A stretch of 64,000 nucleotides of DNA from Pseudomonadota bacterium. Lineage in GTDB: Bacteria > Pseudomonadota > Gammaproteobacteria > Burkholderiales > JBFMAC01. Within the stretch, counting starts at the first letter, position 1. Each line of letters starts with the position of its first letter. The DNA lies in contig JBFMAC010000007.1 in NCBI GenBank assembly GCA_040756015.1, positions 42,685-106,684 on the forward strand. Direction: 5' to 3'. Made by a program: the position numbers and the translations under genes. Positions 554 through 62,761 of this stretch are shown here, piece after piece. The notes under the pieces were generated by a model. That model saw only the letters and a program-made list of their open reading frames with translations, did no database searches and was not told the DNA's origin.

Positions 554-1567
554 ATGCGGATTTATCGAAACATACCCGAGCGCGCGGACAGGCCGGTGGC
601 GCTGACCATCGGCAATTTCGACGGCGTGCATCTCGGTCACCAGGCCATGCTGGCGCGGCTGGTGCAGGCGGCGCGCACGCGGGGTTTGCCGGCTTGTGTG
701 ATGACGTTCGAACCGCACCCGCGCGAGTTTTTCGCGCCGGATCAGGCGCCGACGCGCATTACCAGCCTGCGCGAAAAGCTGGAATTGCTGGCCGGCTGCG
801 GGGTCGATCGCGTGTATGTGTGCCGTTTCGATTATGCCTTCGCGCAGATCACGGCCGAAGCGTTCATCGACGACATCCTGCGGCGCGGATTGGATACGTG
901 CTATTTGCTGGTGGGTGATGATTTCCGCTTCGGCGCACGCCGTGCCGGCGACTTCGCCATGCTGCAAACGGTGCTGGGTAATAGGTCAGCGCAGAGAGGT
1001 GTGGGCGTGGCTGCGGCGAGCCCTCTCCCCAACCCCTCCCCCCAAGGGGGAGGGACATGCATGGTGGAAGCGATGGAGAGCATCGAAGTGAATGGCGTGC
1101 GCGTGTCCAGCACGGCGATCCGCGAGGCGCTGGTGGCGGGGAATCTGGATGGCGCCAGGATGTTGCTGGGCAGGCCGTACAGCATCAGCGGACGCGTGGT
1201 GGGCGGCGACAAGCTGGGCAAGCAGATCGGCTTCCCTACCGCCAACGTGCAGATGAAGCACAACCGCCCGCCGCTGTCTGGCATTTTCGTGGTCGAGGTG
1301 CACGGGCTGGGGGAGGTGCCGTTGCCGGGCGCGGCCAGCCTGGGTGTGCGTCCGACGGTGCATGAAAAGGGCAAGGCGGTGCTGGAAGTGCACCTGCTCG
1401 ATTTCGACCGCCGCATATACGGCAAGCACCTGCGTGTGGATTTCCTGAAGAAGCTGCGCGACGAAGAGAAATACCCGGATTTGCCCACGCTCACCGCGCA
1501 GATTATGCGCGACGTGGAAAACACCAGAAACTATTTTGTTAACCGCAAGGAACGCCAAGGACGCTAA
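554..1567 (+). CDS. ribF: Bifunctional riboflavin kinase/FAD synthetase
   Basis: IGNFDGVHLGH, TFEPHP, VSSTAIR and GFPTAN motifs; directly upstream of ileS-lspA. Confidence 0.97.
   Translation: MRIYRNIPERADRPVALTIGNFDGVHLGHQAMLARLVQAARTRGLPACVMTFEPHPREFFAPDQAPTRITSLREKLELLAGCGVDRVYVCRFDYAFAQITAEAFIDDILRRGLDTCYLLVGDDFRFGARRAGDFAMLQTVLGNRSAQRGVGVAAASPLPNPSPQGGGTCMVEAMESIEVNGVRVSSTAIREALVAGNLDGARMLLGRPYSISGRVVGGDKLGKQIGFPTANVQMKHNRPPLSGIFVVEVHGLGEVPLPGAASLGVRPTVHEKGKAVLEVHLLDFDRRIYGKHLRVDFLKKLRDEEKYPDLPTLTAQIMRDVENTRNYFVNRKERQGR
1021..1056. repeat. CCCTCTCCC-type hairpin repeat inside ribF (in frame)
   Basis: ccctctccccaacccctccccccaagggggaggg; 9-bp stem, 1034-1042 pairing with 1046-1054; related to the element at 2949-3008. 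Confidence 0.75.
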
Positions 1568-1631: not shown

Positions 1632-4511
1632 ATGGCTGACTACAAAGATACGCTGAATTTACCTGACACGCCTTTCCCGATGCGTGGCGATCTTGCCAAG
1701 CGTGAGCCGGGCATGGTGCAGGCCTGGCAGGAGAAAAAGCTCTACCAGAAAATGCGCGCGGCGGCACAGGGCCGCCCCAAGTTTATCCTGCACGACGGCC
1801 CGCCCTACGCCAACGGCGACATCCACATCGGCCATGCGGTGAACAAAATCCTCAAGGACATCATCGTCAAGAGCAAGGCGCTCGCCGGTTTCGACGCGCC
1901 CTACGTGCCGGGTTGGGATTGCCACGGCCTGCCGATCGAGCACCAGGTGGAAAAGATCCACGGCAAGAATTTGCCGCCGGCGAAATTCCGCGAACTGTGC
2001 CGTGCCTACGCGGCCGAGCAGGTCGAACGTCAGAAGAAGGATTTCGTCCGTCTCGGCGTGCTCGGCGACTGGGAGCATCCCTATCTCACCATGAATTTCC
2101 AGACCGAGGCCGACATCATCCGCGCACTCGGCAAGATTCACCAGAACGGCTATCTCTACCGGGGCGCCAAGCCGGTGAACTGGTGCATCGACTGCGGCTC
2201 GGCGCTGGCGGAAGCGGAGGTGGAGTACGAGGACAAGACCTCGCCGGCGATCGACGTGGCGTTTGAGTTTAAGAATGTAGCAGGCAATGCTTACAATGCA
2301 TTGGATAAGTTTGATTTCGTCAGTACGCAGGCGAAAAACGAGGTTCTCGGAAAAAGTGTCAGTATTGTCATCTGGACAACAACCCCATGGACACTACCCG
2401 CTAATGAGGCAGTGGCTTTACATCCCGATTTGACCTATGCATTAGTCAAGTGTTCGCAGGGTGACAAGCAACAGTATTTGGTGCTCGCTGAGCCGATGGT
2501 GGTTTCCTCCATGGCTCGTTACGGGATTGTCTCATTCGAAGTGGTGGCAACGTGTCTTGGAAGTAAGTTGGAACTTTTGAAGGTTCAACATCCTTTCTAT
2601 GAGAATCGCAAAGTAGAGATTATTTTAGGGGGGCACGTTACTACCGAGGCTGGAACTGGAGCGGTACACACCGCGCCGGCGCACGGCCTCGACGATTACC
2701 TCGTCGGCCAGAAATACGGCCTGCCGGTGGACAACCCCGTGAATGGCGACGGCAAGTTCAAGGAAGGCACACCGCTGGTGGGCGGACTCAACGTGTGGAA
2801 GGCGAACGACGTGGTCATCGCCGAGCTGGAGAAAAACGGCCGCCTGCTCAACGCGGAAAAGATTAGGCACAGCTATCCGCATTGCTGGCGCCACAAGACG
2901 CCTATCATTTTTCGCGCCACGCCGCAGTGGTTCATCGGCATGGATCGTCCCTCTCCCGGCCTTCGGCCACCCTCTCCCGCAAGCGGGAGAGGGGCTGGGG
3001 GAGAGGGTTTGCGTGATCTGGCGATGAGCGCGGTGGATGCCACGCAATTTTTCCCGTCGTGGGGGCGCGCGCGTCTGGAGGCGATGATCAGGAACCGCCC
3101 CGACTGGTGCGTGTCGCGCCAGCGCAACTGGGGCGTGCCGATGCCGTTCTTCGTACATAAGGATAGCGGCGAACTGCATCCGCGCACGCCGGAGCTGCTG
3201 GAAAAAATCGCGCAGCGCGTCGAGCAGGCCGGCATCGAAGCCTGGTTCGCGCTCGACGCGCAGGAACTGCTCGGCGCCGAAGCCGGGCATTACCGCAAGA
3301 TGAGCGATACGCTCGACGTGTGGTTCGATTCCGGCACCACCCACGCTTCGGTGCTGGCGCGGCGCGAAGAATTGCAGAAGCCCGCCGACTTATATCTGGA
3401 AGGCTCTGACCAGCATCGCGGCTGGTTCCAATCTTCGCTGCTCACCGGTTGCGCCATGGACGGGCGCGCGCCTTACGATGCGCTGCTTACTCACGGTTTC
3501 GTGGTGGACGGCAGCGGCCATAAGATGAGCAAGTCCAAAGGTAACGTGATCGCGCCGCAGAAGGTGATGGACACCTTGGGCGCCGACATCCTGCGCCTGT
3601 GGGTGGCCGCCACCGACTATTCGGGCGAGCTGACCATTTCCGACGAAATTTTGAAGCGCGTGGTGGAGAGCTATCGCCGCATCCGCAACACGCTGCGCTT
3701 TTTGCTCGCCAACCTCGCTGATTTCGACGTGCACAAAGACGCGCTGCCGCTCGAGCAGTGGCTGGAAATCGACCGCTACGCACTGGCGCTGACGCGGCGT
3801 TTGCAGGAAGAAATCACCACCCAGCACTACCAGCGCTACGAGTTCCATCTCGCGGTGCAGGCGTTGCAGACTTTCTGCTCGGAAGAGCTGGGTGGCTTCT
3901 ACCTAGATATCCTCAAGGACCGCCTCTACACCGCAGGCAAGGATTCCGCCGCGCGCCGCTCCGCGCAGAGCGCGCTGTATCACATCGCGCACAGCGTGGT
4001 GCGGCTGATGGCGCCGATGTTGTCGTTCACCGCCGAAGAGGCGTGGCAGCACCTGACCGGTAGCGCCGGCTTTGCCGACGACAGCGTGTTTCTGCATACC
4101 TGGCACAAACTACCGGTGCAGGCGGATGAAAACGAATTGATTTCGCGCTGGGGAAAGCTGCGCAGCTTCCGCGCCGACGTGCTCAAGCAGCTGGAGGAGC
4201 AGCGTGCGCTTGGCAAGATCGGTTCATCTCTCGCTGCCGAAGTGGAGATTTATGCCAGCGGCGACAGCCATCGTCTGCTGCGTGCACTGGGTGACGATTT
4301 GCGCTTTGTTCTGATCGTGTCGCGTGCCGTGTTGCATGAAGTGGCGGTGCCCACCGAGGAAAAAGTCATGGTGCTGCCGAGCGCGCATGCCAAGTGCGAG
4401 CGCTGCTGGCATTACCGCGCCGATGTCGGCAGCGATGCGCAACACCCCGCGTTGTGCGGGCGCTGCGTCAGCAATTTGTACGGTGCCGGCGAGCCGCGCC
4501 GCCATGCGTAG
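1632..4511 (+). CDS. ileS: Isoleucyl-tRNA synthetase (type 1)
   Basis: [21 protein letters not shown] and KMSKS motifs plus the C-terminal CERCW/CGRC zinc motif. Confidence 0.99.
2949..3008. repeat. Branched-hairpin repeat inserted in frame in ileS
   Basis: ccctctcccggccttcggccaccctctcccgcaagcgggagaggggctgggggagagggt; inner stem ccctctcccgc/gcgggagaggg and outer ccctctccc/gggagaggg pairing. Confidence 0.85.
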
Positions 4512-29480: not shown

Positions 29481-30518
29481 GTGTCTGAACCTGTTATTTC
29501 CAACGTATTGGCGCAATTCACGCTTATGCCGGAGAGGCTGCCTGCCGCCGCATCGGCTGAAGAAATGGCCAGGGGCCTGGATTTCAGCGAGATTTTCGGG
29601 GTGTTGCTGGGTGCATTGCCGCCAGATGGTACGCTGTTGCCGGGAGCGGTGGATGCGCTGGAAGCCAGTCCTGACGCGGATGTGGACGTTCAGCAACAGG
29701 CAGGCGCGGCGCGGTTTGCCGCCGATGCCGCCACCTTGCTGCCCGGCCAGGTATTGCCCCCAGCCCAGGTCATGCCGGCTGGCCAAGTGGATATGGAACA
29801 GGGCGTGTCGGCACCCATGGTTGACCTGGGCGCGATGTTGCCGGTCACCGTTCAGGCGGGGGTGCAGGCAACCGGGCACGACGGCGATGAGGCGGCAAAT
29901 TTTGCCTCCCCTGGAGCTTTTTTGCCGGTTTCCGACGATGACCTGCCGGTACGGCAGGGGTTTGCTGATCCCGGGATGATCCAGAACACGGCCGTTGATG
30001 GCCAGGCGGCGGTACCCATGGCGTCAGGCCAAGTCGTGCACCAAGCCGCCGCCACAGCCGAGGCGCGCCCGGCCACGAGCGTGGCCACGCATGTCGCACC
30101 GCACATCAGCCATGCCGAGTGGAATGATGCCTTCAGCCAGAAGGTGGTGTGGATGGCTGGGCAGCAGCACCAGCAGGCCGACATCCAGATCAATCCGCCT
30201 AACTTGGGGCCGGTCGAAGTGCGCCTGTCGCTCAACCAGGATCAGGCCAGCCTGATGTTCATTTCGCCGCATGCGGCGGTGCGCGATGCGATCCAATCGG
30301 CATTGCCGCGCTTGCAGGACATGATGGCAAGCAGTGGCTTGACGCTGGGCAATGTCTTCGTCGGCTCGGAAGCGGCGCAGCAGCAGGCTTACGGCGAGCG
30401 CCAAGCCAGACATGGCGGTGCGGGGGGTGAGCTTGCCGGCGAGGTGGTCGGCATGGGCGGCGTGAGCGGAGAGCTGTACTTGCCGCGGCACCATGGCATG
30501 GTGGATTTGTTCGCATAG
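29481..30518 (+). CDS. fliK: Flagellar hook-length control protein
   Basis: C-terminal W..AFSQKV...QINPPNLGPVEV...RDAIQSALPRLQDM. Confidence 0.9.
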   Translation: MSEPVISNVLAQFTLMPERLPAAASAEEMARGLDFSEIFGVLLGALPPDGTLLPGAVDALEASPDADVDVQQQAGAARFAADAATLLPGQVLPPAQVMPAGQVDMEQGVSAPMVDLGAMLPVTVQAGVQATGHDGDEAANFASPGAFLPVSDDDLPVRQGFADPGMIQNTAVDGQAAVPMASGQVVHQAAATAEARPATSVATHVAPHISHAEWNDAFSQKVVWMAGQQHQQADIQINPPNLGPVEVRLSLNQDQASLMFISPHAAVRDAIQSALPRLQDMMASSGLTLGNVFVGSEAAQQQAYGERQARHGGAGGELAGEVVGMGGVSGELYLPRHHGMVDLFA

Positions 30519-30553
30519 CCATACTTCATCCTTTTCCTTTTGTCAGATAGTTG

Positions 30554-34168: not shown

Positions 34169-34960
34169 ATGATCAGCTTCAGCGACGCCCAGCTCAATGC
34201 CTGGATCGCTGCTTTCATGTGGCCATTCTTTCGCGTCCTCGGCCTGGTCGCCAGCGAACCGGTGCTGGGCAATCGCAGCGTGCCGGTGAGCGTGAAAATC
34301 GGCGTGGCCCTGCTCATTACCTTCCTGCTCACGCCGCTGCTTGCCCCGTTCCCCAGGGTGGAGCCGGCTTCGGCCATGGGGCTGCTGATCGCCGCACAGC
34401 AGGTGCTGATCGGCGTCGCCATGGGATTTACCATGCGCATCATTTTTATCGCGGTGGAAATGGCTGGCCACTTGGCGGGACTGCAAATGGGGCTGGGCTT
34501 TGCCGTGCTCTTCGACCCGCAAAATTCGGCGCAGACTGCGATCGTGGCGCAATTTGCCGGGCTGGTTGTGATCCTACTGTTTCTAGCCCTCAACGGGCAT
34601 TATTGGGTGTTGAGCACGCTCGCGGACAGCTTCCGTGCCTTGCCAATTTCCGCGGAACCGCTGGCGGCGGCGGGGTGGCTGACGCTGGTACAGTGGGGCG
34701 GGCAGATATTCAGCGCTGGCGTGCTGTTGTCCCTACCGGTGGTGGCGGCGCTGCTGATCACCAACATCGGCATCGGCATCATGTCGCGCGCCGCGCCGCA
34801 ACTCAATATTTTTGCGGTGGGTTTTCCCCTCACACTGGCGGTGGGTTTCTTCGCACTTTATTTTTCCATGCCTTATTTCCTGCCGGCGTTGGAACGCCTG
34901 TTCCAGGGCGGCATGGAAGCCATCCTGCATATCCTGCGCGGTTTCGTTTATCCGGCATAA
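34169..34960 (+). CDS. fliR: Flagellar export protein FliR
   Basis: QMGLGFA and RAAPQLNIFAVGFP. Confidence 0.96.
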   Translation: MISFSDAQLNAWIAAFMWPFFRVLGLVASEPVLGNRSVPVSVKIGVALLITFLLTPLLAPFPRVEPASAMGLLIAAQQVLIGVAMGFTMRIIFIAVEMAGHLAGLQMGLGFAVLFDPQNSAQTAIVAQFAGLVVILLFLALNGHYWVLSTLADSFRALPISAEPLAAAGWLTLVQWGGQIFSAGVLLSLPVVAALLITNIGIGIMSRAAPQLNIFAVGFPLTLAVGFFALYFSMPYFLPALERLFQGGMEAILHILRGFVYPA

Positions 34961-48138: not shown

Positions 48139-48292
48139 AGTGACAAATTGCGTCACTTTGCGCCCATATTCGGAGGGTGTGCAGGTGTTGTTGTTATGGG
48201 ACGGAAAACCCGCCTAAATAAATAACATTAAAAACCAAGCAATTAAAATGTCACATGGACGGGCGAAAGTACGTCAAGCAAGCCGCCCAAAC

Positions 48293-48308
48293 TGGCACAT
48301 GGCTTGCG
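48293..48308 (+). promoter_or_regulatory. Sigma54 promoter of the pilin gene
   Basis: TGGCACATGGCTTGCG with exact -24/-12 spacing, about 50 bp upstream of the pilin ATG. Confidence 0.85.
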
Positions 48309-48356
48309 TCAATGCTTGGTGAACACATTGTGTGTTTCGGCCAACAAGGAGCAAAC

Positions 48357-48794
48357 ATGAAACGAGTCCAACAAGGTTTTACCCTGATTGAATTGATGAT
48401 CGTGGTGGCGATTATCGGCATTCTGGCCGCGATCGCGATCCCGGCTTATAACGACTACACTAAAAAGGCGCGCTTTAGCGAGGTAGTACAGGCTTCGCAG
48501 GCGCTTAAGACCGCGGTTGAAGTGTGTGCCAGCGATTTGAATACCCTGACTGGTTGTTCTGATGGTTCGAATGGTATTCCTGCTGCCGCTGTGAACCCGA
48601 GCACTTATGTTGCTAGGGCTTCTGTAACCGATGGTGTCATTACCATTACCCCCAATGCAACGGGTGGTTTGGCGGCTACTGATACCTATATCCTCACACC
48701 TACCTTGGGAGCCAATGGTGTATCTTGGACCAATGCGGCGGCTGGTGCAGTTAGCGGTTGTATTGCAACCAACCTCTGTAAACAAGTACCGTAA
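48357..48794 (+). CDS. pilA: Type IVa major pilin
   Basis: [31 protein letters not shown] prepilin motif, GGAG RBS and four Cys. Confidence 0.95.
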
Positions 48795-48812
48795 GCTTGT
48801 AATCAGTTGATC

Positions 48813-61971: not shown

Positions 61972-62652
61972 TTATTCATCTTGTTCTTCAAGCCAATCCT
62001 CATACTCTTCTCTTTTTTCATCGATGAAGTCTTCAATCACGTCGAACAAGTTTTCATCCATGGTGGCAAGGGAATCGAGTACGCCGGTCATTTCCCAGAT
62101 GGTGTACATCTCGACCGAGGTCTTGAGCGAGACTTCCCAAGCGGTGTCGGTGGTCTGCAAGGTTTTCATCGGGATCGCCTTGCGCAACGTCTTCAGGTTA
62201 CCCTCGACCTTCTGGATGTTGGGGCCCCAGTCCGGGAAATGGTCGGGCTGGATCATGTCGGGGGAGAGTTGATTGCCAGTGGTGATCAACTTCAGCATCA
62301 CGCGTCCGAACGGGCGCAGCACGTCCTTGGCCGATTGCATGCCGTGCTTGATCGCGACTTCGCGCATGATCATCACCAGCCCGCCGGGCGAATTCTTGAA
62401 TGGGCAGCGCGCGGCGCAGGTCATGCACTGGGCGCAGGCCCAGATTTTTTCCTGCATGGCATCGTAAATTTGTTCGACGTTCTCGGTCCAGAGCAGCTGG
62501 ACGATTTCACGTGGGCTGTAGTCGTAGAATTGTGCGGAGGGGCAGGTGGCGGTGCAGATACCGCAGTTGAGGCATCCGTTCAGCTCATGGTCGTAGCGGA
62601 AATCGCTCTTGATGTCCTCGAAGATTTCGCGCATTTCAGCATAACTTGCCAT
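61972..62652 (-). CDS. shdrC1: sHdr subunit C1
   Basis: CLNCGICTATCP and CAQCMTCAARCP. Confidence 0.95.
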   Translation of the reverse strand: MASYAEMREIFEDIKSDFRYDHELNGCLNCGICTATCPSAQFYDYSPREIVQLLWTENVEQIYDAMQEKIWACAQCMTCAARCPFKNSPGGLVMIMREVAIKHGMQSAKDVLRPFGRVMLKLITTGNQLSPDMIQPDHFPDWGPNIQKVEGNLKTLRKAIPMKTLQTTDTAWEVSLKTSVEMYTIWEMTGVLDSLATMDENLFDVIEDFIDEKREEYEDWLEEQDE

Positions 62653-62761
62653 GGCTGCTTCCTTTCCTATCGCACATCAGGCAATAGATTAGAATTTCAT
62701 AATATGAAAATTTATATAAAGTCGTCGAAGAACGCAAGCCTTTTTTAGTTTTATTAAATAT

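What the first reader, a model, noticed from the sequence alone, without database searches (positions are those of the whole stretch)
2270..2660. AT-rich patch covering most of the IleRS CP1 editing domain
Seen: GC drops abruptly inside ileS. Hand counts give 26/60 at 2281-2340 and 24/60 at 2581-2640, against 44/60 at 2161-2220 and 37/60 at 2701-2760. The patch starts just after SPAIDVAF and ends at GTGAVH. Even the invariant [11 protein letters not shown] is written in A/T-ending codons (ACA ACC CCA TGG ACA CTA CCC GCT AAT). The frame is intact. Established: this region is the CP1 editing domain that clears mischarged Val-tRNA(Ile). Inference: the segment was replaced by recombination with a low-GC donor, with crossovers in the conserved flanks, which may alter proofreading or inhibitor sensitivity.
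Basis: partly seen in the sequence, partly recalled or inferred. Interest (0 to 1): 0.72.

Follow-up and report, generated by a model that had tools for sequence, protein, structure and literature searches.

The report
Swapped low-GC segment inside ileS
A 405-base stretch of the essential isoleucyl-tRNA synthetase gene, coding for the front part of its proofreading domain, is a rare alternative version that distantly related bacteria have exchanged by recombination, and in GC-rich genes it is AT-rich for reasons not yet settled.

Summary
Codons 211-345 of ileS (window 2262-2666) have GC3 0.47 against 0.80 in the rest of the gene. This is the strongest internal dip among 1,087 long ORFs of the genome.

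The segment is recombinant, but it is not a recent import private to this genome. It is one member of a rare, deeply diverged allele family of the N-terminal part of the CP1 editing domain. Five other betaproteobacterial lineages carry it closely, and three more loci carry it distantly.

By their flanks the carriers are not a clade (AU p down to 1e-80). By the patch they are. A carrier and its close non-carrier sister are 88-94 % identical in the flanks and 37-58 % in the patch. Only 2 of 225 and 1 of 151 species carry the allele in two surveyed families.

The segment is under purifying selection, keeps the editing motifs and folds confidently. No donor was identified, and a gammaproteobacterial origin is not supported. 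Why the segment stays AT-rich in GC-rich genes is unresolved; the tests gave mixed results. metG of the same genome has an analogous segment. The closest known concept is aaRS "homeoalleles", here at sub-gene scale.

The parts
1632..4511 (+). ileS, bacterial type-1 isoleucyl-tRNA synthetase, 959 aa. It is the only ileS in the genome.
   Evidence: ORF. TIGR00392 scores 923.5 bits against a cut-off of 621.4. A single copy exceeds the cut-off in the genome. AF2 model: pLDDT 90.6, TM 0.88-0.92 to Priestia megaterium IleRS1 8c9e/8c9f.
2262..2666 (+). Low-GC3 recombinant segment (codons 211-345). It encodes the N-terminal ~60 % of the CP1 editing domain and belongs to a rare 'Q-type' allele family.
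   Evidence: Change-point scan. Unbiased four-fold sites. Patch tree and AU tests. Shared with L112-L116.
2199..2261 (+). Conserved 5' block (S190-A210, [21 protein letters not shown]) in which all carriers switch allele. This is the inferred 5' crossover zone.
   Evidence: Codon alignment of carriers and non-carriers. 5' boundary support 2253-2277.
2667..2696 (+). Conserved 3' block ([10 protein letters not shown]), the inferred 3' crossover zone for the window's copy and L112-L115. L116 switches back about 20 codons earlier.
   Evidence: Codon alignment. 3' boundary support 2657-2675.
2277..2357 (+). Allele-specific N-terminal stretch (V216-S242, [27 protein letters not shown]). It makes the Q-type segment 10-17 residues longer than ordinary betaproteobacterial alleles and about 19 residues longer than solved IleRS1 at this point.
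   Evidence: Alignments. It is modelled as a loop plus two short helices, 223-226 and 232-238, with pLDDT 66-89.
2373..2405 (+). Thr-rich editing-site motif [11 protein letters not shown]. It is retained but written mostly in A/T-ending codons.
   Evidence: Sequence. Invariant in all carriers and in 50 IleRS sequences.

Best explanation
Window 2262-2666 is one copy of a rare, old, alternative allele (a sub-genic 'homeoallele') of the N-terminal part of the IleRS CP1 editing domain. It entered this lineage's otherwise ordinary betaproteobacterial ileS by homologous recombination, with crossovers in the two strongly conserved blocks that bracket it.

Shown: the same allele family sits in the same position in phylogenetically scattered lineages. 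These are several Gallionella-like species, one species of a neighbouring family, and this genome's own single-species family. The allele has been gained or lost repeatedly, including between close sister species and with differing 3' breakpoints. It encodes a working segment: it is under purifying selection, the editing motifs are intact, and the fold is confident.

Inferred: its low GC is a property carried by the allele, with the composition of a ~45-50 % GC genome at all three codon positions. It shows up as a dip only where the host gene is GC-rich. The timing of entry into this genome and the ultimate source are unknown. Whether the low GC is slowly ameliorating or is held low is unresolved.
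For: (1) Composition. GC3 is 0.47 against 0.80 with sharp borders. Four-fold sites are A .26, C .26, G .21, T .27 in the patch and .04/.43/.44/.09 in the flanks. GC1 and amino-acid use are also AT-shifted.

(2) Specificity. 28 same-order relatives have no comparable dip. Among 104 ileS genes, the six carriers are the six strongest outliers.

(3) A shared allele. L112-L116 are 61-72 % identical to the window in the patch, with the same insertion and the same 5' border.

(4) Incongruence. The patch tree unites the carriers (99*; 95/92* and 84/88). The flanks reject a carrier clade: p-AU 2e-48, and 1.5e-80 and 7e-62. The patch data reject keeping Gallionella-like carriers with their non-carrier kin (p 6e-4) and L228/L229 with L023 (p 1e-4).

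(5) Direct mosaic signature. L115 against its sister L087 shows nt identity 0.88-0.94 in the flanks and 0.37-0.58 in the patch. Flank dN is 0.03 and patch dN is 0.49.

(6) Different 3' breakpoints (L116 against the others). L114-L115 patch dS is 0.52 against flank dS 1.1-1.3. Both indicate several events.

(7) Rarity. 2 of 225 species in one family and 1 of 151 in another carry the allele.

(8) Function kept. dN/dS is 0.05-0.16, motifs are invariant, and pLDDT is 85-97 over most of the patch.

(9) Not a mobile-element insertion. No flanking repeats, no plasmid or phage carrier, and a single ileS in the genome.

(10) Related Q-type alleles in ~52 % GC hosts (L228, L229) show no dip. Different alleles of the same segment also dip in GC-rich hosts (L075, L209).
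Against: No donor or compositionally 'native' close carrier was found, so the direction and date of the event in this genome are not shown. The window's patch differs by at least 28 % in amino acids and by saturated synonymous sites from every other copy.

The organismal tree was approximated by the ileS flanks, not by ribosomal markers.

For the marine L227 locus the patch data do not reject vertical descent (p 0.43).

A purely 'imported and ameliorating' account fits poorly in three respects. All closely related carriers keep GC3 at 0.37-0.48 regardless of host GC3 (rho -0.08 across the nine Q-type loci). Synonymous changes among L112/L114/L115 are balanced (18 W->S against 13 S->W, where 37:10 is expected under the flank regime; p 0.0135). 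The nearest relatives of the analogous metG segment have no dip.

Read-level confirmation of the junctions was impossible.
Confidence: 0.75

Rival explanations
1. One reading: a recent replacement, private to this lineage, by DNA from a low-GC donor in which the segment is native. Under this reading the low GC is simply unameliorated donor composition.
For: Sharp compositional borders. AT shift at all codon positions. On the window's own branch the few polarisable synonymous changes lean W->S (7 against 2), compatible with ongoing amelioration. Related alleles sit without a dip in ~52 % GC hosts (L228, L229), so lower-GC carriers do exist.
Against: No sequence more than 73 % identical to the patch exists in the 5.8-billion-protein collection. 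Synonymous sites are saturated against all known copies. Every close carrier found is itself a GC-richer host with a dip. Patch GC3 does not track host GC3. The trio test argues against amelioration.
Confidence: 0.3
2. The low GC is actively held. The swapped segment has its own substitution equilibrium inside a GC-rich gene. Possible causes include selection for slowly translated or weakly structured codons while the CP1 insertion domain folds, or the segment escaping the GC-raising force (for example recombination-linked biased gene conversion) because it is too diverged to recombine with the common allele.
For: W->S and S->W changes are balanced in the patch of L112/L114/L115. The implied equilibrium GC3 is 0.46, against 0.70 in the flanks of the same genes (p 0.0135). 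Patch GC3 is 0.32-0.57 irrespective of host GC3 0.54-0.82. Outliers are one-sided: 11 of 187 genes fall at or below -0.16 and none rises above +0.14. The metG segment is low-GC here while its nearest relatives are not. Unverified earlier scan notes describe AT-rich swapped segments in several aaRS genes of unrelated GC-rich genomes.
Against: Counts are small and parsimony-based at near-saturation. The window's own branch looks like normal amelioration. L228 and L229 carry related alleles at GC3 0.50-0.57, so the allele family is not intrinsically AT-rich. Four-fold sites show no position-specific conservation: identity is 0.24-0.37 against 0.25-0.28 expected. No mechanism was demonstrated.
Confidence: 0.3
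3. In-situ fast evolution: the region simply evolves quickly and drifts to AT in these lineages, with no transfer.
For: This part of CP1 is the most variable part of IleRS. Across non-query pairs, patch identity is about 0.86 x flank identity - 0.06. The allele family sits on a long stem.
Against: It would need convergent evolution of the same insertion and 61-72 % identical sequence in lineages that the flanks place apart. It would also need a 16-fold dN acceleration between the sisters L115 and L087. dN/dS in the patch is as low as in the flanks.
Confidence: 0.03
4. Assembly artefact: a chimeric contig joining two organisms within a conserved gene.
For: Many of the related sequences are MAGs or metagenome contigs, and reads could not be examined.
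Against: The same architecture is recovered in independent NCBI, ENA and JGI assemblies. The frame is intact. Purifying selection acts among the copies. The GC-rich flank and the AT-rich patch share no long identical words at the junction that could mislead an assembler. The genome scores 99.99 % complete and 0 % contaminated.
Confidence: 0.02
5. An embedded nucleic-acid element (antisense gene, internal promoter or structured RNA) forces AT-richness.
For: One promoter-like match at 2269-2297.
Against: That match is at chance level: 1 found against 0.8 expected. No Rfam hit falls in the patch. There is no antisense ORF of at least 100 aa within it. Synonymous sites show no excess conservation among carriers.
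Confidence: 0.03

Closest known systems
aaRS homeoalleles (Andam, Fournier & Gogarten 2011, Biol Direct 6:47, PMC3191353; LeuRS in Halobacteriales, PMC3436685)
   Same: There are a common and a rare, deeply diverged form with the same function. Both coexist within a higher taxon, each genome holds only one, and the distribution is patchy and conflicts with ancestry. Replacement occurs by homologous recombination in conserved flanks while synteny is kept.
   Different: Here the exchanged unit is a 135-codon piece of one domain inside the gene, not the whole gene. The rare form also carries a compositional signature (low GC3) that is not part of the homeoallele description.
Mosaic chromosomal genes made by interspecies homologous recombination (e.g. 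penA of Neisseria and pbp2x of Streptococcus, from my own knowledge; detection methods in PMC3241670, title and abstract only)
   Same: Blocks of foreign ancestry lie inside an essential gene, with breakpoints in conserved sequence and an intact frame.
   Different: Those mosaics are recent, have identifiable donor species and follow a known selective agent (beta-lactams). Here the allele family is old, the donor is unknown and no selective agent is known.
Horizontally acquired whole IleRS genes: type-2 IleRS and MupA/MupB mupirocin-resistance enzymes
   Same: They involve horizontal movement of IleRS-coding DNA.
   Different: The window's enzyme is type 1. MupA and MupB models score 287 and 274 bits against cut-offs of 1900. 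TM is 0.88-0.92 to IleRS1 and about 0.7 to IleRS2. The swapped part is in the editing domain, not the synthetic site that mupirocin binds.
Hypervariable, low-GC allele cassettes at type IV pilin loci (from my own knowledge; one sits in this window at 48255-50491)
   Same: Divergent alleles are exchanged through conserved flanks, and their GC is lower than that of the genome.
   Different: Pilins are surface proteins under diversifying selection. The ileS segment is cytoplasmic and under purifying selection.

Membership tests
Bacterial type-1 IleRS (ileS, TIGR00392) | Whole-protein score above the curated cut-off | tested here: met
   923.5 bits against 621.4.
Bacterial type-1 IleRS (ileS, TIGR00392) | HIGH and KMSKS motifs, CP1 editing motifs (WTTTPWT, GTGxVHxAPxHG..D), C-terminal Cys4 zinc motif | tested here: met
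   HIGH (DIHIGHAV), [31 protein letters not shown] and CERCWHY...CGRC can all be read in the translation. They are invariant in the 50-sequence alignment.
Bacterial type-1 IleRS (ileS, TIGR00392) | Fold closest to solved IleRS1 rather than IleRS2 | tested here: met
   TM 0.88-0.92 to 8c9e/8c9f (IleRS1), against about 0.7 to 8c8u-8c8w (IleRS2).
Mosaic gene by homologous recombination | The segment and its flanks have significantly different phylogenies | tested here: met
   AU tests in both directions.
Mosaic gene by homologous recombination | Breakpoints lie in conserved sequence, the frame is kept, and no element ends or target duplications are present | tested here: met
Mosaic gene by homologous recombination | An identifiable donor lineage | tested here: not met
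   The best non-self patch identity is 73 %. No compositionally native close carrier was found.
aaRS homeoallele (sensu Andam & Gogarten) | Two divergent forms coexist within a higher taxon, with one form per genome | tested here: met
   Q-type and ordinary alleles both occur in the Gallionella-like family and in a neighbouring family. The genome holds a single ileS and a single copy of the patch.
aaRS homeoallele (sensu Andam & Gogarten) | Patchy distribution that conflicts with a reference phylogeny | tested here: inconclusive
   There is strong conflict with the ileS-flank tree and with GTDB family and genus assignments. No ribosomal reference tree was built.
aaRS homeoallele (sensu Andam & Gogarten) | Same syntenic context for both forms | tested here: met
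   ribF-ileS-lspA is the context in the window and in L112-L116 and L227-L229.
aaRS homeoallele (sensu Andam & Gogarten) | Identical function of the two forms | not testable with these tools
   Only indirect evidence is available: motifs are kept, dN/dS is 0.05-0.16 and the fold is confident.
aaRS homeoallele (sensu Andam & Gogarten) | The exchanged unit is the whole gene | tested here: not met
   Only codons 211-345 switch; the flanks follow the host group.
Mupirocin-resistant IleRS (MupA/MupB) | Score above the curated cut-off of NF000257 or NF000258 | tested here: not met
   287 and 274 bits against 1900.

The most novel reading that the evidence does not exclude
Swappable sub-domain segments of aminoacyl-tRNA synthetase genes form long-lived allele pools shared across families, and occasionally across classes. 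Their AT-rich codon make-up is not a leftover of a low-GC donor. It is a maintained state: a separate substitution equilibrium inside a few hundred bases of an otherwise GC-rich essential gene. ileS CP1 and the metG anticodon-binding domain of this genome would be two instances of a general rule.
Probability: 0.3. Interest if true: 0.8.

Novelty: new variant of a known kind. Interest (0 to 1): 0.55.

Why it matters
Core translation genes are usually treated as vertically inherited markers. Here one structural piece of an essential proofreading domain behaves as an exchangeable allele that is rare (about 1 % of species), old, and shared among families. Single-gene ileS phylogenies and recombination-free assumptions therefore fail at sub-gene scale.

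The allele gives a natural experiment on CP1. Two very different versions of the segment carrying the Thr-rich editing peptide work in near-identical enzyme bodies (L115 and L087).

If the low GC proves to be maintained rather than inherited, it would bear on an open question: what keeps bacterial GC content high, and why that force can fail locally within a gene.

Tried and rejected
(1) Gammaproteobacterial donor. The first tree and the hit lists suggested it. AU tests did not reject a betaproteobacterial affinity (p 0.55-0.79), and a careful tree made the allele family sister to the ordinary betaproteobacterial allele. Dropped.

(2) More carriers or a native source.
- Family surveys found only the known carriers.
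- G019's family is not a reservoir: 1 of 151 species carries the allele.

(3) Mobile-element vector. The best plasmid and phage hits were at most 51 % identical and were ordinary ileS genes.

(4) Element ends. No repeats bracket the patch.

(5) Embedded RNA, promoter or antisense gene. Nothing above chance.

(6) A genome-wide property linking ileS and metG dips. The association was weak (Fisher p 0.026). It weakened further once non-carriers G441 and G443 were found to have metG dips too. The dips are allele-specific, not genome-specific.

(7) Rank 2 of the genome-wide dip scan (C17). It overlaps the untranslated upstream part of a stop-to-stop ORF of another class I synthetase gene, so it is probably not a true internal dip.

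(8) Read-level check of the junctions.

(9) DNA for the Methylomagnum ishizawai MetRS. It was not on record.
Full report
THE OBSERVATION

The window's 959-aa ORF 1632-4511 is ileS. TIGR00392 scores 923.5 bits against a cut-off of 621.4, and it is the only ileS in the genome.

- GC falls from about 0.63 to 0.43-0.50 between roughly 2220 and 2660 and then returns to 0.65.
- The fall is concentrated at third codon positions: GC3 is 0.40-0.67 inside against 0.77-0.97 next to it.
- A two-breakpoint likelihood scan places the segment at codons 211-345, which is window 2262-2666. GC3 is 0.47 inside and 0.80 outside. 2dLnL is 58.8 against at most 23.7 in 60 permutations.
- Among 1,087 ORFs of at least 350 aa in the 2.35-Mb, 61.5 % GC genome, this is the strongest two-sided internal GC3 dip.
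- At four-fold sites the patch is essentially unbiased (A .26, C .26, G .21, T .27), while the flanks are .04/.43/.44/.09. First positions and amino-acid usage are AT-shifted too.

IS IT PECULIAR TO THIS GENE?

Yes. The collection holds no other member of the window's family, so the relatives came one per family from the same order. In 28 such relatives the homologous codons have GC3 within 0.15 of their flanks, mostly within 0.06.

The patch is also 10-17 residues longer and more diverged than the region's general variability predicts. The mean residual is -0.11, about 1.6 SD, although two other genes are similar outliers.

THE UNEXPECTED PART: OTHER CARRIERS

A protein search restricted to residues 208-346 found six clusters at 63-73 % identity. 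Beyond them identity fell to about 53 %. DNA for five of them (L112-L116) shows the following.

- They have the same long N-terminal stretch and the same 5' border.
- They have the same dip: patch GC3 is 0.37-0.47 against flanks of 0.52-0.84.
- Their flanks are only 68-84 % identical in protein to the window's.
- Four-fold sites in the patch are at chance identity between the window and the others: 0.24-0.37 against 0.25-0.28 expected. dS is at least 1.3 or not computable.

So this is not a recent event private to this genome. Among 104 full-length ileS genes, the six carriers are the six strongest outliers. Their patch-minus-flank GC3 is -0.17 to -0.37; all others lie between -0.15 and +0.07.

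RECOMBINATION

The patch tree unites the six carriers (99*). The flank tree does not.

- L112-L115 lie inside a Gallionella-like group, interleaved with non-carriers L007, L101, L102 and L087.
- L116 lies next to Methylophilaceae.
- The window's gene lies elsewhere again.

AU tests agree in both directions.

- The flanks reject a carrier clade (p 2e-48; 1.5e-80 and 7e-62).
- The patch rejects keeping the Gallionella-like carriers with their non-carrier kin (p 6e-4).

The clearest single picture is L115 against its close sister L087. Nucleotide identity is 0.88-0.94 throughout the flanks and 0.37-0.58 in the patch. Flank dN is 0.03 and patch dN is 0.49.

All carriers change allele inside the invariant [17 protein letters not shown] block. 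At the 3' end, L116 reverts to the ordinary type about 20 codons before the others. L114 and L115 have patch dS 0.52 against flank dS 1.1-1.3. Both facts indicate several separate events.

Other checks are consistent with homologous crossovers. No repeats bracket the patch. No plasmid or phage carries it. The genome has no second copy.

DISTRIBUTION AND ORIGIN

In the Gallionella-like family, 2 of the 225 species with a match carry the allele. They belong to different genera and score 287-301 bits against at most 151 for all the rest. These two are the species of L115 and L113. In a neighbouring family, 1 of 151 species carries it.

More distant members of the allele family exist.

- L228 and L229 have flanks sister to L023 (100*), and their patch rejects that position (p 1e-4). 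Their hosts are ~52 % GC and show no dip.
- L227 has Porticoccaceae (gammaproteobacterial) flanks and a dip of -0.31. It shares a clearly similar insertion motif. However, the patch data do not reject vertical descent for it (p 0.43), so its membership is tentative.

The first impression of a gammaproteobacterial donor did not hold. AU does not reject a betaproteobacterial affinity (p 0.55-0.79). With a better alignment, the allele family is the deep sister of the ordinary betaproteobacterial allele clade (91/95). No donor is identified.

FUNCTION

dN/dS in the patch is 0.05-0.16, like the flanks. [14 protein letters not shown] and [12 protein letters not shown] are invariant among carriers.

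An AlphaFold model built on 50 sequences is confident (pLDDT 90.6, pTM 0.87).

- The patch scores 85-97 except for the 211-220 loop, which scores 66.
- The allele-specific stretch forms a loop and two short helices just before the strand that enters the Thr-rich peptide.
- The model matches IleRS1 structures at TM 0.88-0.92.

The segment corresponds to about residues 207-335 of solved bacterial IleRS. Nothing links it to MupA/MupB-type resistance. Any change in proofreading is untested.

WHY IS IT AT-RICH?

This is the unresolved part, and the evidence is mixed.

For a plain "imported from a lower-GC genome and not yet ameliorated" reading:
- All codon positions are shifted.
- Related alleles sit without a dip in ~52 % GC hosts.
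- On the window's own branch, synonymous changes lean W->S, 7 against 2.

Against it, or for a maintained low-GC state:
- All closely related carriers sit at GC3 0.37-0.48 whatever the host.
- Across the nine Q-type loci there is no correlation with host GC3 (rho -0.08).
- Among the three closest carriers, patch changes are balanced: 18 W->S against 13 S->W, where the flank regime predicts 37:10 (p 0.0135). The implied equilibrium GC3 is 0.46 in the patch and 0.70 in the flanks.
- Across 187 ileS genes the outliers are one-sided: 11 fall at or below -0.16 and none rises above +0.14.
- Other, unrelated alleles of the same segment also dip in GC-rich Gallionella-like hosts. L075 carries an L021-like allele, and L209 carries a third variant.

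There is no sign of an embedded nucleotide-level element.

A SECOND LOCUS

The genome's next true internal dip is in metG, outside the window on contig C2 at about 129570-130020. It covers the anticodon-binding helical domain. GC3 is 0.44 against 0.84 and 0.83 in the flanks.

- The same segment dips in G053, G199 and G323, and also in the ileS non-carriers G441 and G443.
- It does not dip in G029, G442, G128 and others.
- The metG alleles are mutually very diverged even between sisters. G053 and G441 have flanks 82-84 % identical in nucleotides and a segment 49 % identical in amino acids.
- The nearest relatives of the window's metG segment are Methylomagnum ishizawai (68-69 %), L243 (64 %) and L244 (59 %). 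L243 and L244 show no dip; DNA for M. ishizawai was not on record.

So swap-prone sub-domain segments with frequently AT-rich alleles are not unique to ileS here. Unverified earlier notes from this scan report similar segments in alaS, metG, glyS, aspS, hisS and ileS of unrelated genomes. I treat these as leads only.

COMPARISON WITH WHAT IS KNOWN

The closest concept is the aaRS homeoallele: a common and a rare divergent form coexisting in a taxon, one per genome, replaced by recombination in conserved flanks (PMC3191353).

This case meets those criteria, with three qualifications.
- The unit is a 135-codon part of a domain rather than the whole gene.
- Functional equivalence is only inferred.
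- The reference phylogeny used was the gene's own flanks.

It also resembles classic mosaic genes such as penA and pbp2x, but it lacks an identifiable donor and a known selective agent. I therefore class it as a new variant of a known kind.

LIMITS

An assembly chimera is nevertheless very unlikely, given independent assemblies, an intact frame and purifying selection.
- Several AU groups were defined from one partition and tested on the other, which is legitimate. The trees are 'quick' searches for the flanks.
- The polarised counts are small and parsimony-based.

Noticed in passing
G000 contig C2, about 129570-130020 (outside the window): metG (MetRS) has an equally sharp low-GC3 segment of about 150 codons (0.44 against 0.84/0.83) covering the anticodon-binding helical domain. 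The homologous segment is hypervariable among close Gallionella-like relatives. It is low-GC in some (G053, G441, G443, G199, G323) and not in others (G029, G442, G128). Its nearest relatives are Methylomagnum ishizawai (68-69 %), L243 and L244; L243 and L244 have no dip.
   Followed up: partly
window 2949-3008: A GC-rich palindromic repeat (CCCTCTCCC...GGGAGAGGG family) is inserted in frame in ileS and adds about 20 residues ([21 protein letters not shown]). Residues 446-456 are predicted disordered (pLDDT <50). Copies of the repeat occur at many sites in related genomes.
   Followed up: partly
window 979-1056: A related repeat is inserted in frame in ribF. It pairs as an inverted repeat with the ileS copy (arms 1016-1043 and 2985-3012, 75 % complementary). 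RibF still matches its equivalog model over its full length.
   Followed up: partly
window 48255-50491: The largest other low-GC stretch of the window encodes a type IV pilin (N_methyl + Pilin) and a 542-aa TPR / PMT_2-like membrane protein. This is a typical hypervariable, exchange-prone locus.
   Followed up: partly
L075 (Gallionella sp. MAG, JBDTPU010000036.1), ileS patch: An independent case at the same site. The flanks are Gallionella-type (75-91 % aa), but the patch is an L021-like allele (57 %) with GC3 0.37 against 0.60-0.69. L209 (G128) has a third variant with a -0.26 dip.
   Followed up: partly
L227 (TARA marine contig), ileS: The flanks are Porticoccaceae-type (71-81 % aa). The CP1 segment carries a Q-type-like insertion (NEAGHSHEAAERFAYISEEAKKEVLGNK) with GC3 0.32 against 0.58-0.68. 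Cross-class sharing of the allele family is suggested but not proven (AU p 0.43).
   Followed up: partly
L113 / G199, ileS flanks: On this lineage's branch the flank synonymous changes are overwhelmingly S->W (103 against 6). The host gene appears to be in rapid GC decline (flank GC3 about 0.55).
   Followed up: no
window 30381-30531, 34791-34841, 62371-62691: Further short stretches have GC of 0.50 or less in 390-nt windows. They were not examined.
   Followed up: no
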